From Chloroflexota bacterium (lineage in GTDB: Bacteria; Chloroflexota; Limnocylindria; Limnocylindrales; CSP1-4): a stretch of 64,000 nt of DNA. Made by a program: the position numbers and the translations under genes. Location of the stretch: NCBI GenBank assembly GCA_026004015.1, contig BPIH01000001.1, forward strand, positions 95,236-159,235, written 5' to 3'. This document shows positions 17,948-50,931 of this stretch, piece after piece (position 1 is the stretch's first letter; each line of letters opens with the position of its first letter). Under the pieces are notes generated by a model that saw nothing but the letters and a program-made list of their open reading frames with translations, was not told the origin of the DNA and searched no databases.

Positions 17948-19094
17948 GTGGCCTCACCGTTGGCCGCCCCTTCCCTCGAGGGGGCCGGGATCTCGGCCCG
18001 CCTCCGGCTCGCCGAGGAGGTCGCGGGGGCTCTCGCCGCCGGCCGGCCGGTCGTCGCCCTCGAGTCGACGCTCATCAGCCACGGCCTCCCGTTCCCGGTC
18101 AACCTCGAGGTCGCGGCGGGCGCCGAGGAGGCGGTGCGGGGCGCCGGTGCGACGCCGGCGACGGTCGCCATCCGGGACGGCCAGATCCTCGTCGGCCTCG
18201 GGCGGGACGACCTCGTCGCTCTCGCCTCCTCGCCACCGGGCAGCGTTCGCAAGGCGTCTCGTTCCTCCCTCGCAGGGGCCCTCGCCCGAAAGGGCTGGGC
18301 GGCGACGACGGTCTCGGCGACGATGATCGTGGCTCGGGCGGCGGGAATCGCGGTCTTCGCGACCGGGGGGATCGGCGGGGTCCATCGGGGGGCCTTCGGT
18401 GGGGTCCTCGGCGGTTCCTCGGGGGCGGCCGCGGAGGCGTCTCCCGAGGCGGCCGGTCCCGGACCCGTGTCCGACGTTCGTACCGACCTCGCCGCTCCGG
18501 CATCCACGACCCGACCCGCCGCCGGCCGGCCGCCGAGCCTCGACGTCTCGGTCGACCTCGAGGAGCTGGCGCGGACACCGGTGGCCGTCGTCTGCGCCGG
18601 CCCGAAGGCGATCCTCGACGTCGCCGGGACCGTCGAGTGGCTCGAGGGCCGCGGGGTGCCGGTGCTCGTCATCGGCCAGCGGGAGGTCCCGGGCTTCTGG
18701 TGCCGGACGAGCGGCGTCTCCCGCGCCGGACACCGCCGCCGACGTGGCCGAGGCGGCGAAGGTCGTGGCGACCCACCTCGAGCTCGGCCTCGGCAGCGGA
18801 ATTCTCGTCTGCGTGCCGGTGCCCGAGTCGGCCGCCCTGCCCGACGACCTCGGTCGGGCCGCCGTCGAGCGGGCCGTGGCCGAAGCCGAGGCGGCGGGGA
18901 TCGGCGGCGCGGCGCTGACTCCGTGGCTGCTGGGCCGGATTGCCGAGCTGACCGACGGCGCCTCGCTTCGGGCGAACGCGGCCCTCATCGTCGAGAACGC
19001 CCGGGTGGCGGGCGAGCTGGCGCGCCGGGTGGCGGGCGAGCTCACCGGCCGGGTGACGGGCTCGCCCGTCCGCCGGGTTCCTGGAGGAGGCTGA
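17948..19094 (+). CDS. psuG: Pseudouridine-5'-phosphate glycosidase; frameshift near 18720
   Basis: 'VVALESTLISHGLP', 'ATTVSATM', 'FATGGIGGVHRG', 'DVSVDL', 'CAGPKAILD', then 'LTPWLLGRIAELTDGASLRAN'. Confidence 0.93.
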
Positions 19095-19119: not shown

Positions 19120-19445
19120 GCGACGCCTCCACCGAACGGAACGCCCGCGCCGGCCGACCTCCGGGCCTGGGTGACGCCCACAGCGAGCAGAACGCGGCCC
19201 GCGGCGCGGACCCCGCCACTCGTGACACCCACAGCGAACGGAACGCCCGCGCCGGCCGACCTCCGGGCCGGGGTGACACCCATAGCGAACAGAACCCATC
19301 GATGGCCCGTTGACGGCGCCGACGTGACGCCCACCCCGAACAGAAGGTGTGGAGCCAGCTCGGATGCGATCTTCCTGTTCGCTCAGGGTGGCACTCCGGG
19401 CGACGACCGTCACCGGACCGGCGTTCTGTTCGGTCAAGGTAGCGG
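19120..19445. repeat. 51-bp-period array A: 5 forward + 2 inverted degenerate 23-bp repeats
   Basis: Forward repeats (GTGACRCCCAYAGCGAACRGAAC-like) start at 19120, 19171, 19222, 19273 and 19324. Inverted copies start at 19372 and 19423. Confidence 0.9.
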
Positions 19446-19580: not shown

Positions 19581-20693
19581 GTGACCCTCGCCGAGCTGCC
19601 GGCGGCGATCGAGGCGCGAGGCATCCGGCGCATCTACGCCGCACGCCCGACGCCCGTCGTCGCCCTCGACGGCATCGATCTCGACGTGCCGGCCGGAGAG
19701 TTCTTCGGCCTCCTCGGCCCGAACGGCGCCGGCAAGACGACCCTCATCAAGATCCTGACCACCCTCCTCGGCCCGAGCGAGGGCTGGGCCCGCGTCTTCG
19801 GCTTCGACGTCGTCCGCCAGGCGAAGCAGATCCGACGGATCATGAACATGGTCGCCGGCGGCGAGCAGTCCGGCTACGGGATCCTGACCGTCCGTGAGCA
19901 GCTCTGGATGTTCAGCCAGTTCTACGGCCTCCCCGGCCGCGACGGCTGGCGCCGCGTCGACGAACTCATCGAGCTCGTCGGCCTCGAGGAGCAGCGGAAC
20001 CAGCGGGTGAGCACCCTCTCCACCGGCCAGCGCCAGAAGCTGAACGTCGCTCGGGGCCTCCTCAACGACCCCTGGATCCTCTTCCTCGACGAGCCGACCC
20101 TCGGCCTCGACGTCTCGGCGGCCCGCGCCCTCCGGGCCCTCGTCGTCGAGTGGCAGCGGGCCGTTCCGGGCCGCACGATCCTCCTGACGACCCACTACAT
20201 GGCCGAAGCCGACGAGCTCTGCGACCGGATCGCCATCGTCGATCGCGGCCGGATCCTCGCCATCGGGAGCCCGGCCGAGCTTCGGCGGCTCGTCCGACGG
20301 GAGTCGATCTTCCGCCTCGAAGTCGATCACCTCGACGGCGGCCCGGCCGTCCTCGCGGGCCTGCCCGGTGTCGTCACCGCCACGGCCGCTGCCCGGGACG
20401 ACGGCACCGCGATGCCCGGTGCTGACGCCGACCAGCGAGTCGCCGTCAACCTCGTCCTCGCCGACGACGCGGCCCTGGCCGGTGTCGTCGGCGCCCTCGG
20501 ACAGCTCGGCTCGCGGATCCTCGCCCTCCGCAAGGCCGAGCCGACCCTCGAGGACGTCTTCGTCGAGCTCGTCGGGCGCGGCTTCGACGAGGAGGCCGTC
20601 GACCACCCGCCCGACGAGGTCGAACCCGCCCCGGCCGTCCCCCCGAGCGCCCACGGCCCGGGGGCGCCGGAGGCCCGCGAGGTCGCCCGGTGA
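19581..20693 (+). CDS. ABC transporter ATP-binding protein
   Basis: Walker A 'GPNGAGKTT', signature 'LSTGQRQK', 'LFLDEPT', 'TTHYM'. Confidence 0.95.
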   Translation: MTLAELPAAIEARGIRRIYAARPTPVVALDGIDLDVPAGEFFGLLGPNGAGKTTLIKILTTLLGPSEGWARVFGFDVVRQAKQIRRIMNMVAGGEQSGYGILTVREQLWMFSQFYGLPGRDGWRRVDELIELVGLEEQRNQRVSTLSTGQRQKLNVARGLLNDPWILFLDEPTLGLDVSAARALRALVVEWQRAVPGRTILLTTHYMAEADELCDRIAIVDRGRILAIGSPAELRRLVRRESIFRLEVDHLDGGPAVLAGLPGVVTATAAARDDGTAMPGADADQRVAVNLVLADDAALAGVVGALGQLGSRILALRKAEPTLEDVFVELVGRGFDEEAVDHPPDEVEPAPAVPPSAHGPGAPEAREVAR

Positions 20694-43301: not shown

Positions 43302-46061
43302 ATGATCAGCCCGACGATGACGATCCTGCCCCGGCGCGCCGAGGACCGCGCCTCCGACGTCTACCGCCTCGGCCGCCATCCCCTCGACCCGATCTTCCGA
43401 CCCCGCTCGGTCGCCGTCGTCGGGGCGACCGAGAAGGAGGGGAGCGTCGGCCGGACCGTCCTCTGGAACCTCATCTCGAGCCCCTTCGGCGGCACCGTCT
43501 TCCCCGTCAACCCGAAGCGCTCGAGCGTCCTCGGCGTCAAGGCCTATCCGAACCTCGCCGCCGTCCCCGACCCCATCGACCTCGCCGTCATCGTCACCCC
43601 GGCCGAGACGGCACCGGGACTCATGGAGGAGTGTGCCGCCGCCGGCGTCCGGGGCGTGATCATCATCTCGGCCGGCTTCAAGGAGAGTCGGCCCGGCCGG
43701 GGCGGCCCTCGAAGCCCAGGTCCTCGAGATCGCCCGCCGGGCCCGGATCCGGGTCGTCGGCCCGAACTGCCTCGGGGTCATGAACCCGATCTCGGGCTTG
43801 AACGCGACCTTCGCCGCCGGGATGGCGAAGGCGGGCTCGGTCGGCTTCGTCAGCCAGTCGGGCGCCCTCCTGACCGCCGTCCTCGACTGGAGCGCCCGCG
43901 AGGGCGTCGGCTTCAGCTCCGTCGTCTCCCTCGGCTCGATGCTCGACGTCGGCTGGGGCGACGTCATCTACTACCTCGGCGACGACCCGCACACCGAGAG
44001 CATCGTCATCTACATGGAGACCATCGGCGACGCCCGCTCCTTCCTGTCGGCCGCCCGGGAGGTCGCCCTCACGAAGCCGATCATCGTCATCAAGCCCGGC
44101 CGGACGGCCGAGGCCGCCCGCGCCGCCGCCTCCCACACCGGCTCCCTCACCGGCTCGGACGAGGTCCTCGCCGCCGCCTTCCGCCGGGTCGGTGTCCTGC
44201 GCGTCGACCGGATCAGCGATCTCTTCGGGATGGCCGAGGTCCTCGCCAAGCAACCCCGCCCGGCCGGTCCGCGCCTGACGATCGTGACGAACGCCGGCGG
44301 ACCCGGGGTCATCGCCACCGACGCCCTCGTCGCCGGCGGCGGTCGGCTCGCCGAGCTCGCCCCGGAGACGATGGCCGCCCTCGACGCCGTCCTCCCGCCG
44401 ACCTGGAGCCACAACAACCCGATCGACATCATCGGCGACGCGCCGCCCGAGCGGTACGCGAAGGCCCTCGAGATCGCCGCCCGCGATCCCGGGCTCCGAC
44501 GGCCTCCTCGTCATCCTCACGCCCCAGGCGATGACCGACCCGACCCGGACGGCCGAGGCGCTGACGGCCTACGCCCGGATCGACGGCAAGCCCGTCCTCG
44601 CCTCCTGGATGGGCGGCGCCGAGGTGGAGGCCGGGGCGACCATCCTCCGGCGGGCCGGGATCCCGACCTTCGACTACCCGGACACGGCGGTCGAGATGTT
44701 CAACTACCTCTGGCGCTCGGCCCAGGATCTCCGAGCCCTCTACGAGACGCCGTCCTTGCCGGCCGACGACGAGCGGGTCGTCGACCGGGCCCGGGCGGCA
44801 GCGGTCATCGAGGCGGCCCGGGCGGAGGGGCGGACGCTCCTGACCGAAGTCGAATCGAAGGCGGTCCTCTCGGCCTACGGGATCCCGATCACCGAGACGC
44901 GGGTCGCCCGGACCGAGGAGGAGGCGGTGGCCGCGGCCGAGGCGATCGGCTACCCGGTCGTCGTCAAGCTCTACAGCCACACGATCACCCACAAGACCGA
45001 CGTCGGCGGGCGTCGTCCTCAACCTCCACGACGCCGCCGCCGTCCGGGCTGCCTACCGGCAGATCGAGGCGGCGGTGACCGAGCGCCGGGGCCGGGAGCA
45101 CTTCGAGGGGGTGACGGTCCAGCCGATGATCAACTACACCGGCTACGAGCTCATCCTCGGCTCGTCCATCGACGACCAGTTCGGGCCGGTCCTCCTCTTC
45201 GGGATGGGCGGCCAGCTCGTCGAGCTCTTCCGGGATCGCAGCCTCGGCCTGCCGCCGCTCAACACGACCCTCGCCCGGCGGATGATCGAGCGGACGACGA
45301 TCTCCAAGGCCTTCGCCGGGATCCGGGGCCGGCGGCCGATCGATCAGGCGGCCCTCGAGGAGCTCCTCGTCCGCTTCAGCCTCCTCGTCGTCGAGCAGCG
45401 CTGGATCCGGGAGATCGACATCAACCCGCTCCTCGCCTCACCCGAGCGGCTGATCGCTCTCGACGCCCGGATCGTCCTTCACGATCCGGGTGTGACCGAG
45501 GCGGAGCTGCCGCGCCTGGCGATCCGACCGTATCCGCGACAGTACGTCGGGACGTGGACGGCCGCCGACGGGACCGAGCTCGTCCTCCGCCCGATCCGGC
45601 CCGAGGACGAGCCGGCCATGGTCCGCTTCCACCAGGCCCTCTCGGAGGAGACGGTCTACGCCCGCTACTTCGCCCACCTCGGGCTGACGGAGCGGATCGC
45701 CCACGACCGGCTCGTCCGGATCTGCTTCAACGATTACGACCGCGAGATCGCCCTCGTCGCCGAACGCCGCGACCCGGCGACGGGTGAGTCGGAGATCGTG
45801 GCCGTCGGGCGGCTGTCCAAGGCGCATGCGGTGCCCGCCGCCGAGTTCGCGATCCTCGTCGCCGACCGCTGGCAGCGGCGGGGGATCGGGACCGAGTTGT
45901 TGCGGCGGCTGGTCGAGATCGCCCGGGCCGAGGGGCTGGAACGGATCTGTGCCGAGATGCTCAGCGACAACGTCGGGATGCGGCGGATCGCCGAGCGGGT
46001 CGGCTTCCGGATCGAGGAGCGGCCGGGCGACGGGACACTCCGCGCGGAGCTCCTTCTCTGA
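43302..46061 (+). CDS. Acetate-CoA ligase (ADP-forming)-family protein fused to a C-terminal GNAT domain (Pat/YfiQ-like); frameshifts near 43690, 44490 and 45010
   Basis: '[10 protein letters not shown]', 'GPNCLG', 'SQSGA', 'SHTGSL', 'TNAGGPGV', 'HKTDVGG', 'DINPLL', and GNAT 'WQRRGIG'. Confidence 0.9.
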
Positions 46062-46140
46062 TCGAGGTGTCCCAGACCTCGCCGACGCCCCGAGCCCTGG
46101 TACGCCGGGCGGATCGGGGGTCCCTCCGCTACGTCGCGCC

Positions 46141-46517
46141 GTGTCGCCCTGGCCGAACAACACGCTCTTGCCTGAGCCCCCGGAGCCGTCCGCGTCGCCC
46201 AGAGCGAACACCTCGCGGTTCGCACTCGCCCGTGCGCTTGCCGTGTCGCTGTCAGCGAACATCACGTGGCTCCGCGCACCCTGGCCGCCGCCCACGTCGC
46301 CCACAGCGAACACTACGCGGGTCCTTCACCGGGCGAGGCGCGTACTGTTCGGCCATAGCGACGCGCGGGGCGGCCACCGGGCCGTCGGGCCCGTACTGTT
46401 CGGCCATAGCGACGCGCCGTGCAACCGGGAGCGCCGGATCCCCGAGATGTTCGGTCTGAGCGACGCGGCGAGCGGTCGGCGAGCCCGGATAGCGGTTCCG
46501 GTCGGCCCGAGCGACGT
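46141..46517. repeat. 51-bp-period array B: 4 forward + 4 inverted degenerate 23-bp repeats
   Basis: Forward repeats start at 46141, 46192, 46243 and 46294 (e.g. acgtcgcccacagcgaacactac). Inverted repeats start at 46342, 46393, 46444 and 46495 (e.g. gtactgttcggccatagcgacgc). Confidence 0.9.
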
Positions 46518-46656
46518 TCGTGCCACCCTCCCGCCCATCGACCGCGTTCGTTCGCCCGCCGATGGCTCGGGGCGACGGTGCCGCCGATCGGGCGTCCTGG
46601 TCGCCAGGCCGGCGCCTCGGCCAACTTCCCCTGGTCGGGACGACGGGCGCGCCGGC

Positions 46657-49203
46657 CTACCCCCGGACGACGACGTTGACGAGCCGCCCGTTGGCGGCGT
46701 GGATGATCCGCTCCGGTTGGCGGCCGCCGAGCAGCGCCGCGATCTTCGGGCGGGCGAGGACGAGCGCCTCGAGCTCCTCTCGGGAGATCCCGACCGGCAC
46801 CTCGATCCGGTCCCGGAGCTTGCCGTTCACCTGGATCGGCACCTCCCGCGTCTCCTCCGCCGCGGCCGCCTCGTCGACGGCCGGCCAGCGCTCGGTGTGG
46901 ATCGAGCGCCAGGCTTCGCCGCGCTCGGCGAGCCGCCGGCTCCAGAGCTCCTCGGTGATGTGCGGCGCCGATGGTGCAAGCATGAGGAGGAGGAGGTCGA
47001 TCGCCTCGTTCCAGGCGGGACCTCCGGCGACGACCGTTCCCCGGTACCGGAAGAGCGTGTTCGTCAGCTCCATGAGCTTGGCGACCATCGTGTTGAAGCG
47101 GAACGCCTCGTAATCCGCCGTCACCTCGCGAAGCGTCCGGTGGGCGGCCCGGCGGAGCGTCGCCGACGCCTTCGCCTCGTCCTCGCCCCCCGGCAGTCGG
47201 CCGGCCTCCGGATCGCCGGGCTCCGTCCCGCCCGGATCGAGGACGAGGGTCCAGACCCGGCGGAGGAACCGATGGACGCCCTCGATCCCGGTCGGGCTCC
47301 AGGGGCCGCCCTGGTCCCACGGCCCCATGAACATGAGGAAGAGCCGGACCGTGTCGGCGCCGTAGCGGGCCACGTAGTCGTCGGGGTCCTCGACGTTGCC
47401 GCGGCTCTTGCTCATCCGCTCGCCGTCGGCGCCGAGGATCTGGCCCTGGTTGAAGAGCCGCTTGAAGGGCTCCCGCTCGCCGACGAGCCCCAGATCGGCG
47501 AGGGCCTTCGTGAAGAAGCGGGCGTAGAGGAGGTGCATGACGGCGTGCTCGGCGCCGCCCGTGTACTGGTCGACGGGGCACCAGCGGTCGACGAGGGCCC
47601 GATCGAGGGGACCGTCGCCCTTCTTCGGCGACAGGTAGCGGTACCAGTACCAGGACGAATCGATGAAGGTGTCCATCGTGTCCGTCTCGCGGCGAGCCGG
47701 GCCACCGCAGCGCGGGCAGTCGACGTTCAGGAAGGCCGGGTCCCGCTTCAGCGGGTTGTCGCCGCGGCCCCGGTAGTCGACCTGCTCGGGGAGGAGGACC
47801 GGGAGATCCTCGTCGGGGACCGGCACGATGCCGTCGCGCTCGCAGTAGATGATCGGGATCGGCGTTCCCCAGTAGCGCTGGCGGCTGATGAGCCAGTCCC
47901 GGAGCCGGTACGTCACGGCCGGCCGGGCCCGGCCCGTCTCGCCGAGCCAGGCGACGATCGCCCGACCCCCGTCGTCGGCCGGCTGGCCGCTGAAGGGCCC
48001 CGAGTTCACGAGCCGCTCATCGCCGCCGTGGGCGACGAAGGCCTCGGTCAGTGGCGCATCCTCGGTCCCGGGCGCGGCCACGACCCGCCGGATCGGCAGC
48101 CCGTACCGAACGGCGAAGGCGAAGTCGCGCTCGTCGTGGGCCGGGACGCCCATGATCGCCCCGGTCCCGTAGCCCAGGAGGACGTAGTCGGCGATGAAGA
48201 TCGGGATCCGCTCGCCGGTGGCCGGGTTGACGGCGTCGGCCCCGATCGGAACGCCGGTCTTCTCCCGCTCCGTCGATAGCCGCTCGATCTCCGTCTCGGC
48301 CCGGGCTCGGGCGACGTAGGCCTCGACCTCGGTCCGCCGATCAGGGGCAGTGATCTCGGCGACGAGGGGATGCTCCGGGGCGAGGACCATGAAGGTCGCC
48401 CCGAAGAGGGTGTCCGGGCGGGTCGTGAAGACGCGAATTGGGGCGCCGCCCGGGTGGTGGTCGCTGGGCGCCGTCTCGAAGACGATCTCGGCCCCCTCGG
48501 AGCGGCCGATCCAGTTCGCCTGCATGACTCGGATCGGCTCCGGCCAGTCGATGCCCGAGAAGTCGAGGAGCTCGTCGGCGTACTTCGTGATCCGCAGGAA
48601 CCACTGCTCGAGGTCGCGCTTCTCGACCCGAGCGCCGCAGCGCCAGCAGCGTCGCTCGGCCCCCTCGACCTGCTCTCGGGCGAGGGTCCCGTCGTTCGGG
48701 CACCAGTCGACGGCGGCCATGGCCCGGTAAGCGAGACCGGCTTCGTAGAAGCGGAGGAAGAACCACTGGTTCCAGCGGTAGTACTCGGGATCGCAGGTTA
48801 CGACCTCGTGCTCCCAGTCGAAGGTCGCCCCCATGCTCCGGAGCTGGCGCCGCATGTTCTCGATGTTCCGCATCGTCCAGGTTGCCGGATGGATCCCGGA
48901 GCGGATGGCGGCGTTCTCGGCCGGCAGTCCGAAGGCGTCGAAGCCGATCGGGAAGAAGACGTTGTAGCCGTGCATCCGCCGGAAGCGGGCGAGGGCGTCG
49001 GTCGGGGTCTTGATGTACCAGTGCCCGATGTGAAGGTCGCCTGACGGGTACGGGTACATCGTCAGGAGGTAGTACTTCGGCCGGCTCGTGTCGGCGAGGT
49101 CGGTCCGGTAGAGGCCGAGCTCGGCCCAGCGAGCCTGCCAGCGCGGCTCGATCTCGGCCGGGTCGTAGCGCTCGGTGCGGATGCGGTCGCGGATCGTCGT
49201 CAC
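46657..49203 (-). CDS. leuS: Leucine--tRNA ligase
   Basis: 'YPYPSGDLHIGH', 'DAFGLPAENAA', 'FTTRPDT', 'DWLISRQRYWG', 'RMSKS', 'QVNGKLR'. Confidence 0.98.
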   Translation of the reverse strand: MTTIRDRIRTERYDPAEIEPRWQARWAELGLYRTDLADTSRPKYYLLTMYPYPSGDLHIGHWYIKTPTDALARFRRMHGYNVFFPIGFDAFGLPAENAAIRSGIHPATWTMRNIENMRRQLRSMGATFDWEHEVVTCDPEYYRWNQWFFLRFYEAGLAYRAMAAVDWCPNDGTLAREQVEGAERRCWRCGARVEKRDLEQWFLRITKYADELLDFSGIDWPEPIRVMQANWIGRSEGAEIVFETAPSDHHPGGAPIRVFTTRPDTLFGATFMVLAPEHPLVAEITAPDRRTEVEAYVARARAETEIERLSTEREKTGVPIGADAVNPATGERIPIFIADYVLLGYGTGAIMGVPAHDERDFAFAVRYGLPIRRVVAAPGTEDAPLTEAFVAHGGDERLVNSGPFSGQPADDGGRAIVAWLGETGRARPAVTYRLRDWLISRQRYWGTPIPIIYCERDGIVPVPDEDLPVLLPEQVDYRGRGDNPLKRDPAFLNVDCPRCGGPARRETDTMDTFIDSSWYWYRYLSPKKGDGPLDRALVDRWCPVDQYTGGAEHAVMHLLYARFFTKALADLGLVGEREPFKRLFNQGQILGADGERMSKSRGNVEDPDDYVARYGADTVRLFLMFMGPWDQGGPWSPTGIEGVHRFLRRVWTLVLDPGGTEPGDPEAGRLPGGEDEAKASATLRRAAHRTLREVTADYEAFRFNTMVAKLMELTNTLFRYRGTVVAGGPAWNEAIDLLLLMLAPSAPHITEELWSRRLAERGEAWRSIHTERWPAVDEAAAAEETREVPIQVNGKLRDRIEVPVGISREELEALVLARPKIAALLGGRQPERIIHAANGRLVNVVVRG

Positions 49204-49311: not shown

Positions 49312-49387
49312 TGGTGGAGCTACGGGGATTCGAACCCCGGACCTTCTGAATGCCATTCAGACGCTCTCCCAGCTGAGCTATAGCCCC
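49312..49387 (-). tRNA. tRNA-Ala(GGC)
   Basis: GGGGCTATAGCTCAGCTGGGAGAGC...TCTGA-ATGGCAT-TCAGA...TTCGAAT...CTCCACCA; 76 nt. TATACT -10 lies upstream. Confidence 0.97.
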
Positions 49388-50752: not shown

Positions 50753-50837
50753 TGGTGGGCCGGGGAGGAATCGAACCTCCACAGCCAGAGGCGAGGGTTT
50801 TACAGACCCTTGGGCTCACCACCTGCCCAACCGACCC
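50753..50837 (-). tRNA. tRNA-Tyr(GTA)
   Basis: GGGTCGG...AGGGT-CTGTAAA-ACCCT, long variable arm, GGAGG-TTCGATT-CCTCC, CCGGCCC-ACCA; 85 nt. Confidence 0.93.
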
Positions 50838-50855: not shown

Positions 50856-50931
50856 TGGTGGAGATGAGGGGACTCGAACCCCTGACCCCCGCGATGCGAA
50901 CGCGGTGCTCTCCCAGCTGAGCTACATCCCC
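50856..50931 (-). tRNA. tRNA-Ala(CGC)
   Basis: GGGGATGTAGCTCAG...CCGCG-TTCGCAT-CGCGG...TTCGAGT...CATCTCCACCA; G3:U70 pair; 76 nt. Confidence 0.96.

What the first reader, a model, noticed from the sequence alone, without database searches (positions are those of the whole stretch)
19120..19445. Convergent 51-bp-period repeat-spacer array (locus A), geometry shared exactly with locus B
Seen: five degenerate 23-bp repeats (consensus ~GTGACRCCCAYAGCGAACAGAAC) at an exact 51-bp period with 28-bp spacers. A 25-bp centre (19347-19371) follows, then two inverted repeats, again 51 bp apart. Spacers 1 and 3 are 27/28 identical and the others are unrelated. Locus B, 27 kb away, has the same 23/28/25 geometry and the same 35-bp gap between the innermost CGAAC and GTTCG, although its spacers and repeat edges have diverged. 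Inference: conserved spacing with free spacer sequence points to selection on geometry. 51 bp is about 5 helical turns, which fits phased, polar binding sites for an oligomeric DNA-binding, nucleoid or recombination protein. Alternatives are a long fold-back ncRNA, or a guide-like array processed into 51-nt units. It matches no element class I recognise (canonical CRISPR, REP/BIME, IS ends).
Basis: partly seen in the sequence, partly recalled or inferred. Interest (0 to 1): 0.85.

Follow-up and report, generated by a model that had tools for sequence, protein, structure and literature searches.

The report
Mirror-image phased repeat arrays, genus-wide
The two loci belong to a family of a few dozen intergenic arrays per genome in one uncultured bacterial genus, in which a 24-bp box recurs every 51 bp in two arms that face each other across a fixed 25-bp gap; this architecture failed the tests run here for membership of the known repeat classes and most likely serves as a phased docking platform for an unidentified DNA-binding protein.

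Summary
It is also much bigger than two loci. The partial genome (1.37 Mb) holds 13 such arrays. Three sister species hold at least 20 (G001), at least 20 (G003) and at least 3 (G002) each. 28 metagenome contigs carry them as well. The plan is always the same: units pointing inward, a 51-bp period, a 25-bp centre, and never the opposite (divergent) arrangement.

Only positions 1-24 of the 51-bp unit are conserved. The spacers carry no information but keep their length. I found no RNA or hairpin signal, no coding signal, no target-site duplication, no RAYT gene, no link to Cas1, and no Rfam, plasmid or phage match.

Arrays sit at orthologous sites between unrelated housekeeping genes, mostly at gene 3' ends. 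They are absent from the same sites in two sister genera. One box position is T in 158 of 160 units in one species and A in 108 of 136 in another, even at orthologous loci. That points to co-evolution with a trans-acting reader.

Best reading (about 0.45): phased, dyad-symmetric protein-binding platforms on double-stranded DNA, working like BIMEs or centromere iteron arrays without being members of either. The binding protein was not found. There is no expression data.

The parts
19120..19346 (+). Locus A, left arm: 5 units of 23 bp (starts 19120, 19171, 19222, 19273, 19324) pointing toward the centre, separated by 28-bp spacers
   Evidence: weight-matrix scores 24-32 bits
19347..19371 (.). 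Locus A, 25-bp centre. Its sequence is not conserved apart from the first G and last C; its length is fixed
19372..19445 (-). Locus A, right arm: 2 inverted units (starts 19372, 19423), somewhat decayed (24-25 bits)
46141..46316 (+). Locus B, left arm: 4 units (starts 46141, 46192, 46243, 46294) of the GYGTCG box-1 type
46317..46341 (.). Locus B, 25-bp centre
46342..46517 (-). Locus B, right arm: 4 inverted units (starts 46342, 46393, 46444, 46495); the outermost is decayed (18 bits)
18399..19094 (+). Gene left of A: Indigoidine_A-like (pseudouridine-5'-phosphate glycosidase family). Its 3' end lies 25 bp before the array
   Evidence: PF04227, E 1.4e-25
19581..20693 (+). Gene right of A: ABC transporter ATPase. 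Its start lies 135 bp after the array
   Evidence: orthologue with an upstream array in G002
45075..46061 (+). Gene left of B: ATP-grasp_5 plus GNAT acetyltransferase (3' part of a longer gene). Its stop lies 79 bp before the array
46657..49203 (-). Gene right of B: leucyl-tRNA synthetase, convergent with the left gene. Its stop lies 139 bp after the array
   Evidence: orthologues with an adjacent array in G003 and G002

Best explanation
Loci A and B are two members of a genus-restricted family of interspersed intergenic arrays.

Anatomy. Each array has two arms of tandem 51-bp units. Each unit is a conserved 24-bp box (G-Y-G-W-C-R-C-C-n-T-n-R-S-C-G-A-A-C-A-n-A-A-C-G) followed by about 27 bp of free sequence with fixed length. 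The arms point at each other across a 25-bp gap of fixed length and free sequence. The whole element therefore has a dyad axis.

Shown. The geometry holds across the family. Information is confined to the box. Spacer length is kept while spacer sequence drifts like neutral DNA. Arms grow by 51-bp and, more often, 102-bp tandem duplication. Arrays are inherited at orthologous sites within the genus. They are absent from two sister genera at the same sites. Box position 4 switches species by species.

Inferred. Each box is a recognition site on double-stranded DNA for one protomer (or dimer) of a sequence-specific protein. The period of 51 +/- 1 bp is about five helical turns, which would put successive protomers on nearly the same face of the helix. 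The two arms would then assemble a two-fold symmetric, multi-protomer complex of wrapped or bridged DNA. This would happen in gene-end intergenic DNA, where convergent transcription meets.

By function, the arrays would work like BIMEs (platforms for gyrase or IHF) or like plasmid centromere or iteron arrays. They are not members of those families. The descriptive part I hold at about 0.95. The protein-platform mechanism I hold at about 0.45.
For: Family and geometry.
- G000 arrays were found with no spacing criterion. Their same-strand spacing is 51 bp in 33 of 39 intervals, and the arm junction offset is 48 bp in 8 of 10 arrays with both arms detected.
- In all 52 arrays the spacing is 51 bp in 229 of 263 intervals (50 bp in 8, 52 in 17, 53 in 4, other values in 5). 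The junction offset is 48 bp in 44 of 49. There are 0 divergent junctions.
- The junction was not part of how the G001 and G003 arrays were found.
- The L-type subfamily has box 2 = YKGACA instead of CGAACA. It keeps the 51/48 geometry at G000:C7 and at G000:C8. The third L-type array (G002, L181) shows periods of 50 and 51 by Tandem Repeats Finder; its junction was not measured.

Constraint pattern.
- Positions 3, 5, 14-19 and 22-23 are conserved in at least 83% of 229 units, most of them in at least 93%. Spacer positions mostly carry less than 0.25 bit.
- In the one locus aligned, the non-array intergenic flanks of locus B show many indels between species, whereas the array keeps its register.

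The signal is neither RNA nor single-strand structure.
- There is no covariation for the only candidate intra-unit stem. The 7-13 pair reads CG 93, CC 78, GG 38, GC 15.
- Mean folding energy of spacers is -9.2 against -9.55 kcal/mol for shuffles. For whole units it is -16.8 against -17.4.
- Spacers of opposite arms match at 10.9 of 28 positions, against a background of 11.3.

Vertical inheritance and a trans-acting reader.
- Neighbouring genes are orthologous across species for at least 7 array sets. Loci A and B have orthologous arrays in G002 and G003.
- Outgroup genera G004 and G009 have the flanking orthologues but no weight-matrix hits forming an array. Tandem Repeats Finder found none in G009; it was not run on the G004 loci.
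- Position 4 is T in 158 of 160 units in G003. In G001 it is A in 108, C in 22, T in 5 and G in 1 of 136 units. In G000 it is A in 29, T in 28, C in 3 and G in 1 of 61 units, and nearly uniform within each array.

The arrays are real DNA. Independent contigs from other runs span array B with the same structure. 28 metagenome contigs carry arrays.
Against: No binding protein was identified.
- No gene recurs next to the arrays. 35 neighbour clusters were found and 34 scanned or otherwise identified; they are diverse housekeeping genes.
- ParB is present in two copies in 18 of the 21 genomes searched (one has one copy, one has three), whether or not they carry arrays.
- Y1 and IS256-type transposases do not track the arrays.

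Boxes 51 bp apart are about 17 nm apart on straight DNA. That is too far for direct contact between ordinary protomers, so cooperativity needs wrapping or bridging, which is pure inference.

The bias toward gene 3' ends is what purifying selection against promoter insertions would give any neutral or selfish repeat. By crude ORF calls, 29 of 40 flanking genes point toward the array, and these are not independent.

The species-specific box switch could also come from homogenisation rather than from a reader protein.

The whole array A folds somewhat better than shuffles as RNA (z = -2.9), as any inverted repeat would. An RNA role for arm-to-arm pairing is therefore not excluded.

All genomes are metagenome-assembled. 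Short-read assembly can collapse arrays.
Confidence: 0.45

Rival explanations
1. Selfish or neutral satellite. The arrays are BOX- or MITE-like interspersed tandem repeats that spread in the ancestor of the genus. They persist where they do no harm, at gene ends. Unequal exchange and homogenisation keep them uniform, without any host function. The period is kept simply because duplication copies whole units.
For: - Tandem duplication is frequent. Between 20 and 27% of spacers have a twin (at least 25 of 28 identical) in the same arm. Spacers two units apart are 27-28 of 28 identical in 13 of 62 comparisons.
- Outer units are slightly decayed.
- There is a gene-end bias.
- The family is restricted to one genus.
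- An IS256-family element sits inside one array, so interruption is tolerated.
Against: - There is no target-site duplication. The longest shared flank word averages 5.42 for the same array against 5.27 between different arrays.
- There is no conserved terminus.
- Arrays in one genome do not share spacers: mean 11.8 of 28, with 2 of 7776 pairs reaching 24 or more. They are therefore not recent copies of one another.
- The arrays are syntenic across species.
- Most spacers have diverged to background yet keep exactly 28 bp. The boxes stay at least 93% conserved at their core positions. An immobile neutral relic would not show this.
- No candidate transposase tracks the arrays.
Confidence: 0.25
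2. RNA-level element. Each arm lies in the 3' UTR of the adjacent convergent gene in the same sense. Arm-to-arm pairing would then form a protective or terminating fold-back, or the boxes would act as linear RNA-protein sites.
For: - Most arrays lie downstream of genes and often between convergent genes, so both arms would be read in the same box orientation.
- Array A folds with z = -2.9.
- The box-1 type is shared by both arms of an array in G000.
Against: - An RNA has no reason to keep an exact 51-bp period and a 25-bp centre.
- Spacers of the two arms are not complementary, so pairing would leave 28 x 28 internal loops.
- Units of opposite arms match at 16.5 of 23 positions, barely above units from different arrays at 15.2. 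Within an arm the figure is 19.5.
- Box positions 20-22 often differ between the two arms.
- There is no covariation and no excess local folding.
- No terminator-like or promoter-like sites were found at A or B.
- There is no Rfam match.
- 11 of 40 flanks are gene 5' sides.
Confidence: 0.15
3. Ruler-type spacer insertion. A CRISPR-like but Cas1-independent machine adds one box plus a 28-bp insert at a time. That would fix the spacer length mechanically, and the arrays might yield guide-like RNAs.
For: - The sizes (23-bp repeat, 28-bp spacer) lie within the CRISPR range (recalled).
- Spacer length is fixed while the sequences are unrelated.
Against: - The arrays have two inverted arms and no conserved leader.
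- Adjacent repeats are only 19.5 of 23 identical.
- Spacers show a weak shared consensus.
- Twin spacers from tandem duplication are common.
- G000 spacers have no matches elsewhere in the genome above shuffled controls: 24 hits against 23 per shuffled set.
- Cas1 is found in G001 and G002 but not in G003, which is 92% complete and rich in arrays. It is also found in array-less G006.
- A contig from another run spans array B with no unit gained or lost.
Confidence: 0.05
4. Remnant of a gene for a 17-residue repeat protein.
For: - 51 and 48 are multiples of 3, so all units share one frame.
- Long open frames cross the arrays.
- Viral 17-residue tail-fibre-like repeats hit the same spaced pattern.
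Against: - The spacers show no codon-position GC periodicity. From the table, the three phases average about 81, 74 and 84% GC. Real genes here have a GC2 of about 0.5 and a GC3 of about 0.9.
- Length deviations are +/-1 or 2 bp, not 3.
- Many G003 units carry TGA or TAG in the one frame that stays open elsewhere (sequences).
- The two arms are inverted.
- The viral hits score 13 bits or less on the weight matrix, bar one unit, and have no second arm.
Confidence: 0.02

Closest known systems
BIMEs / REP elements of enterobacteria and pseudomonads
   Same: Both are short intergenic repeats in regularly spaced composite arrays, mostly at gene ends, with inverted copies facing each other. Both are reported as protein-binding platforms. 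[quoted passage not shown] That gyrase, IHF and Pol I are the binders is recalled.
   Different: The unit here is not a palindrome or stem-loop. Orientation switches once per array rather than alternating. No Y1/RAYT transposase was found in 0 of 21 genomes searched, three of them same-genus genomes at 92% completeness. The spacers are free in sequence.
Plasmid centromere and iteron arrays (R1 parC, F sopC with 43-bp repeats, replication iterons). Recalled, not from any call
   Same: Both are tandem protein-binding boxes at a fixed period. Some have two blocks arranged around a centre, and oligomeric nucleoprotein complexes form on them.
   Different: Those arrays occur at one locus per replicon and sit beside the gene for their binder. 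Here there are at least 13 chromosomal loci with unrelated housekeeping neighbours. ParB copy number does not track the arrays. No plasmid similarity was found.
MITEs and modular pneumococcal BOX elements
   Same: Both are small, non-coding, intergenic elements with inverted ends. BOX has a tandemly repeated middle module (recalled). PMC10969869 was read in passages; it gives conserved terminal inverted repeats and flanking direct repeats as the hallmarks of MITEs, and says BOX, RUP and SPRITE cluster in intergenic DNA.
   Different: Here there is no target-site duplication and no defined terminus. Copies share only the box, not their internal sequence. The arrays are syntenic between species rather than variably inserted.
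CRISPR arrays
   Same: Both have repeat-spacer arrays with spacers of fixed length and unrelated sequence.
   Different: Here there are two inverted arms, degenerate repeats, no leader, no link to cas genes, and no protospacers found.
Eukaryotic centromeric satellites with a conserved protein box (alpha-satellite and the CENP-B box). Recalled analogy only
   Same: In both, a conserved box sits inside an otherwise drifting tandem unit. Both show higher-order periodicity (102 bp, or two units, here) and species-specific concerted change of the box.
   Different: The scale, the dispersed short arrays and the dyad symmetry all differ. No homology is implied.

Membership tests
REP/BIME | The unit is an imperfect palindrome that forms a stem-loop | tested here: not met
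   The candidate stem 4-8/12-16 shows no covariation. Units fold no better than shuffles.
REP/BIME | Successive REPs alternate in orientation | tested here: not met
   Each arm is uniformly oriented and there is a single switch per array. This holds in 52 of 52 arrays, with no divergent junction.
REP/BIME | A cognate RAYT (Y1 transposase, PF01797) is present in the genome | tested here: not met
   0 of 21 genomes have a match, including G001-G003 at 92% completeness. The control rang in 6 of 14 reference genomes. Not found in those searched; G000 is only 55% complete.
REP/BIME | Extragenic location, mostly at gene 3' ends | tested here: met
   All arrays are intergenic. 29 of 40 flanking genes point toward the array. 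ORF calls are crude and the orthologous sets are not independent.
MITE | Target-site duplication flanking the element | tested here: not met
   The longest shared word in 30-bp flanks averages 5.42 for the same array and 5.27 for different arrays, over 48 arrays.
MITE | Copies share their whole sequence, including a defined terminal inverted repeat | tested here: not met
   Only the boxes are shared. Spacers of different arrays match at a mean of 11.8 of 28. There is no information in the 30 bp outside the outermost unit.
CRISPR | Near-identical direct repeats in one orientation, with a leader | tested here: not met
   There are two inverted arms. Adjacent units are 19.5 of 23 identical. The centre and the flanks are not conserved.
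CRISPR | Co-occurrence with cas1 or other cas genes | tested here: not met
   Cas1 is in G001, G002 and array-less G006. It was not found in array-rich G003, which is 92% complete. No cas gene is among the neighbours scanned.
CRISPR | Spacers of fixed length and unrelated sequence | tested here: met
   The period is 51 bp in 229 of 263 intervals and the spacers carry no information. However, 20-27% of spacers have a tandem twin.
Plasmid centromere / iteron array | Tandem binding boxes at a fixed period | tested here: met
Plasmid centromere / iteron array | The gene for the cognate binder (ParB, ParR or Rep) lies adjacent; one locus per replicon | tested here: not met
   No neighbour recurs. 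There are 13 loci in 1.37 Mb. ParB copy number does not differ between genomes with and without arrays.
Plasmid centromere / iteron array | A protein is shown to bind the boxes | not testable with these tools
   This needs a pull-down, DAP-seq or EMSA.
Any Rfam RNA family | A covariance-model match | tested here: not met
   At the gathering threshold the window gives only 3 tRNAs. With E up to 1, searching 3.1 kb around A and around B gives only one sub-threshold hit, outside the arrays.
17-residue coding repeat | Codon-position GC periodicity and frame-preserving indels | tested here: not met
   Spacer GC by phase is about 81, 74 and 84% (from the table). The indels are +/-1-2 bp.

The most novel reading that the evidence does not exclude
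The arrays are a new kind of chromosomal architectural element. They would be dyad-symmetric, helically phased loading platforms on which a lineage-specific protein builds a wrapped or bridged complex at sites where convergent transcription meets. Such a complex could act as a boundary for topology, transcription or replication, or as a bacterial counterpart of a centromere-satellite system. The box would co-evolve with its reader species by species, as in the A-to-T switch at box position 4. A related system with a palindromic GTTCGC-N4-GCGAAC box at the same 51-bp period in another organism (L254) would mean that the 51-bp ruler belongs to the protein family and not to this genus.
Probability: 0.3. 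Interest if true: 0.85.

Novelty: new variant of a known kind. Interest (0 to 1): 0.62.

Why it matters
Interspersed bacterial repeats such as REP/BIME, BOX, Correia and CRISPR have each opened a field once their reader was found. This family shows an unusually clean signature of a geometric constraint. The period and the centre are kept to within a base pair while the sequence between boxes drifts like neutral DNA. A box letter also changes in concert across dozens of orthologous loci. That makes a concrete prediction: there should be one reader protein (or RNA) whose presence tracks the arrays and whose specificity differs between two named genomes. If found, it would give a handle on chromosome organisation in a major uncultured Chloroflexota-like lineage. 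On the practical side, these arrays may help explain why assemblies of this genus break into 160-300 contigs, whereas three relatives without arrays assemble into 8-10 contigs (other array-less relatives have 90-580). If so, knowing about them would help assembly and binning.

Tried and rejected
Rejected after testing
- Intra-unit hairpin (TCGCC / GGCGA): no covariation.
- Hairpins in spacers: folding equals that of shuffles.
- Long perfect palindrome or cruciform: spacers of the two arms are unrelated.
- Coding repeat: see the rival explanations.
- Promoter or intrinsic terminator inside A or B: 0 sites found.
- Self-targeting spacers: 24 hits against 23 per shuffled set.
- Similarity to plasmids or phages by blastn in distant mode: none.
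- Guessed partner families: PF01797 in 0 of 21 genomes; Cas1 uncorrelated; ParB mostly two copies (18 of 21), with or without arrays; Transposase_mut in G000 and G002 but not in G001 or G003, and in six other genera.
- Recurrent neighbour gene: none among 35 clusters. 30 were scanned were covered. One (L179:1696-2721) was left unscanned.

Searches that gave noise
By weight matrix, 118 were chance or unrelated. Only L140, a record titled 'MAG: Chloroflexota bacterium', is a true array. That title is the only basis for the phylum.
- The viral scan for CGAACANNAC x3 gave 14 contigs, all coding direct repeats with no second arm. Most read as 17-residue NTTG...NTAIG repeats, which are tail-fibre-like (a recalled label). 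The convergent pattern gave 0 viral hits.
- The metagenome scan for the convergent pattern gave 48 contigs. 28 are true arrays, 19 are chance matches inside genes, and 1 (L254) is a different 51-bp array. The 48-bp junction of those 28 is built into the pattern and is not independent evidence.

Retracted idea
- Spacers turning over faster than neutral DNA. leuS fourfold sites are 0.69-0.77 identical within the genus, against a random level of 0.45. Most orthologous spacers match at only 11-18 of 28, with one at 24. However, the non-array intergenic flanks of locus B are equally unalignable, so the idea was dropped.

Weak or blank results
- Expression: no RNA holder was listed, so nothing can be said about transcription.
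- Read laying used contigs only.
- Outgroup sample: 146 kb of G008 has no 51-bp array. This is too small to mean much.
- Arm symmetry: 15 of 44 arrays have equal arms, against 9.3 expected (P about 0.03). This is weak.

Literature
- Four full-text searches found no description of such arrays. This covers only the open library held. I read listings and abstracts, plus passages of PMC10969869. Supplements were not consulted.

Full report
1. The observation

Locus A has five direct 23-bp units starting at 19120, 19171, 19222, 19273 and 19324. They are separated by 28-bp spacers. A 25-bp centre follows at 19347-19371, and then two inverted units at 19372 and 19423. Spacers 1 and 3 differ at one position.

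Locus B has four direct units (46141-46316), a 25-bp centre (46317-46341) and four inverted units (46342-46517). The gap between the innermost CGAAC and GTTCG is 35 bp, as at A.

In the window, CGAAC or GTTCG words 51 bp apart occur only at these two loci.

2. It is a family

The window is G000:C1:95236-159235. G000 is a 1.37-Mb, 9-contig assembly with 73% G+C and 55% completeness.

I built a weight matrix from the 15 units and scanned it with no spacing rule. It gave 278 hits of 10 bits or more, against 31 on the reversed genome. Every hit of 20 bits or more falls in one of 12 clusters. Laid out in register, all of them show the same plan.

Two of the clusters (C1 286649 and C1 288299) are one array split by a 411-residue IS256/Mutator-family transposase gene. 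Two further arrays have a variant second box, YKGACA instead of CGAACA. They lie at C7 64891-65369 and C8 52981-53204 and keep the same geometry. That makes 13 arrays in 1.37 Mb.

3. Distribution

A pattern of three CGAAC words at 51 bp was run over 31 genomes.

| Genome set | Matches |
|---|---|
| G000 | 10 |
| G001 (same genus) | 44 |
| G003 (same genus) | 64 |
| G002 (same genus) | 4 |
| 15 other genera of the family | 0-1 each |
| 12 genomes of the sister family | 0 |
| Controls (pattern read backwards) | 0-5 |

G002 also has arrays that this pattern misses.

In public metagenome contigs, 28 of 48 hits to the convergent pattern are true arrays. None was found in viral contigs, in plasmids or in phages.

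The only named record with a true array is titled as a Chloroflexota MAG.

4. Geometry, measured on 52 arrays (12 from G000, 20 from G003, 19 from G001, 1 from G002)

- Same-strand spacing is 51 bp in 229 of 263 intervals. It is 50 bp in 8, 52 in 17, 53 in 4, and another value in 5.
- The junction between a + arm and a - arm has a start offset of 48 bp in 44 of 49 arrays.
- No junction from a - arm to a + arm occurs.

The G001 and G003 arrays were found through three same-strand words, so part of the 51-bp regularity is built in. The junction is not built in. The G000 arrays were found without any spacing rule. They give 33 of 39 intervals at 51 bp, and 8 of 10 junctions at 48 bp.

Arms hold 1-7 units, with means of 3.7 and 3.6. 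Equal arms are slightly over-represented: 15 of 44 against 9.3 expected (P about 0.03).

5. What is conserved (229 units)

Positions 1-24 read G-Y-G-W-C-R-C-C-n-T-n-R-S-C-G-A-A-C-A-n-A-A-C-G. Positions 3, 5, 14-19 and 23 are conserved in at least 93% of units, and position 22 in 83%. Positions 25-51 carry almost no information.

The centre is conserved only in its first G and its last C. The 30 bp outside an array carry no signal, and there is no target-site duplication.

6. Not RNA, not a hairpin, not coding

- The only plausible intra-unit stem shows no covariation.
- Spacers and whole units fold no better than shuffles on either strand.
- Spacers of the two arms are no more complementary than chance: 10.9 against 11.3 of 28.
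- Units of opposite arms match at 16.5 of 23 positions. Within an arm the figure is 19.5, and between arrays it is 15.2.
- Array A as a whole folds at z = -2.9, as any inverted repeat would.
- Rfam finds nothing. No promoter-like or terminator-like sites were found.
- Spacer G+C shows no codon phase (table), and the length deviations are +/-1-2 bp.

7. Dynamics and inheritance

Within arms, 20-27% of spacers have a near-identical twin. Twins two units apart are commoner than adjacent twins: 13 of 62 comparisons are at least 27 of 28 identical, against 8 of 119. The arms therefore grow by 51-bp duplication and especially by 102-bp duplication.

Neighbouring genes are orthologous across species for at least seven array sets.

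- Locus B lies between an acetyltransferase gene and leuS. It has an array at the same place in G003 and in G002.
- Locus A lies upstream of an ABC ATPase gene. It has an array at the same place in G002.
- Genera G004 and G009 have the flanking orthologues but no array (Tandem Repeats Finder was run on the G009 loci only).

Orthologous spacers match at 11-24 of 28 positions. At locus B, the non-array intergenic DNA is equally unalignable and full of indels. Fourfold sites of leuS are 0.69-0.77 identical. So the spacers drift like unconstrained DNA but keep their length.

Contigs from other sequencing runs span array B unchanged. In a relative with about 92% identity, the whole array region is replaced by 491 other letters.

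8. Concerted change of the box

| Genome | Arrays | Units | Base at box position 4 |
|---|---|---|---|
| G003 | 20 | 160 | T 158, A 2 |
| G001 | 19 | 136 | A 108, C 22, T 5, G 1 |
| G000 | 12 | 61 | A 29, T 28, C 3, G 1; nearly uniform within each array |

The species difference holds at orthologous loci.

This needs one of two things: a reader whose preference differs between species, or genome-wide homogenisation. The boxes are too short and the spacers too different for ordinary recombination between loci (inference). I therefore favour a reader.

9. Context

By crude GC3-based ORF calls, 29 of 40 flanking genes within 350 bp point toward the array. These are not independent, because many belong to orthologous sets.

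The neighbours are unrelated housekeeping genes. They include groEL, adenylosuccinate synthetase, the transhydrogenase beta subunit, Ku, PEP carboxylase, SSB, NadA and leuS. No partner gene emerged.

10. Mechanism

The pattern has four parts: an information-rich box, spacers and a centre that are free in sequence but fixed in length, a dyad axis, and a species-specific box letter. It is what selection by a sequence-specific, oligomerising reader of double-stranded DNA would produce.

The period of 51 bp is about five helical turns. Assembly across 17-nm steps would need DNA wrapping or bridging, and this step is inferred. I put this mechanism at about 0.45.

The rivals are a selfish or neutral satellite (0.25), an RNA-level 3' element (0.15), ruler-type spacer insertion (0.05) and a coding remnant (0.02).

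11. Comparison and verdict

The arrays work most like BIMEs or centromere and iteron arrays, but they fail the defining tests of REP/BIME, MITE, CRISPR and plasmid centromeres (see the membership table). Four literature searches found no description of them.

I file this as a new variant of the known kind 'interspersed intergenic repeat arrays'. A real chance remains (about 0.3) that it is a new type of architectural element.

Noticed in passing
L001 2953-4188 (-), i.e. G000:C1 about 286,950-288,250, outside the window: An IS256/Mutator-family transposase gene (411 residues, PF00872, E 2e-126) with its inverted ends sits exactly between a spacer and the next unit of the right arm of an array. 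It splits that array into 3+/2- and 3- parts. G000 has 7 matches to this family. G001 and G003 have none.
   Followed up: partly
L254 1-400 (metagenome contig, 2.8 kb, 71% G+C): A different tandem array with the same 51-bp period. Its unit is a perfect palindrome, GTTCGC-CGTG-GCGAAC, sharing the GCGAAC half-site. It has at least 7 copies and is cut off by the contig end. The one coding-like frame (GC3-filtered) of 100 residues or more on the contig has no homologue in the partial G000 genome.
   Followed up: partly
L201-L214 (14 viral contigs): Coding tandem repeats of 51 bp, i.e. 17 residues. Most read ...A-L-x-x-N-T-T-G-x-x-N-T-A-I-G... and are tail-fibre- or adhesin-head-like by recall. They match the spaced CGAACANNAC pattern by coincidence of codons.
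   Followed up: partly
all arrays; e.g. window 19130-19345 (Tandem Repeats Finder period 102): There is a higher-order repeat of two units (102 bp). Alternate units and spacers are more alike than adjacent ones in many arms, for example L144, L158 and L169.
   Followed up: partly
window 19001-19078: A 24-bp tandem repeat (3.2 copies) lies inside the 3' end of the Indigoidine_A-like gene, just before locus A. It encodes an 8-residue repeat (RVAGEL-like).
   Followed up: no
window 49315-49387, 50756-50837, 50859-50931 (-): Three tRNA genes lie 3-4.5 kb from locus B. No link to the arrays was seen.
   Followed up: no
G000:C1 331817-332374; C8 6469-6815; C6 20003-20177: Other strong tandem repeats in the genome: 150 bp x 3.7 (95% matches), 36 bp x 9.9, and 48 bp x 3.6 (100%). 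They were not examined.
   Followed up: no
window 46053-46661, against run X4 record 25: In a relative with about 92% identity from another study, the whole intergenic region holding array B is replaced by 491 unrelated letters, while both flanking genes align.
   Followed up: no
assemblies G001-G003 against G007, G008, G011: The array-bearing genomes are in 160-300 contigs. Three array-less relatives of similar size are in 8-10 contigs, though other array-less relatives have 90-580. Many G003 arrays lie at contig ends. The arrays may break short-read assemblies.
   Followed up: no
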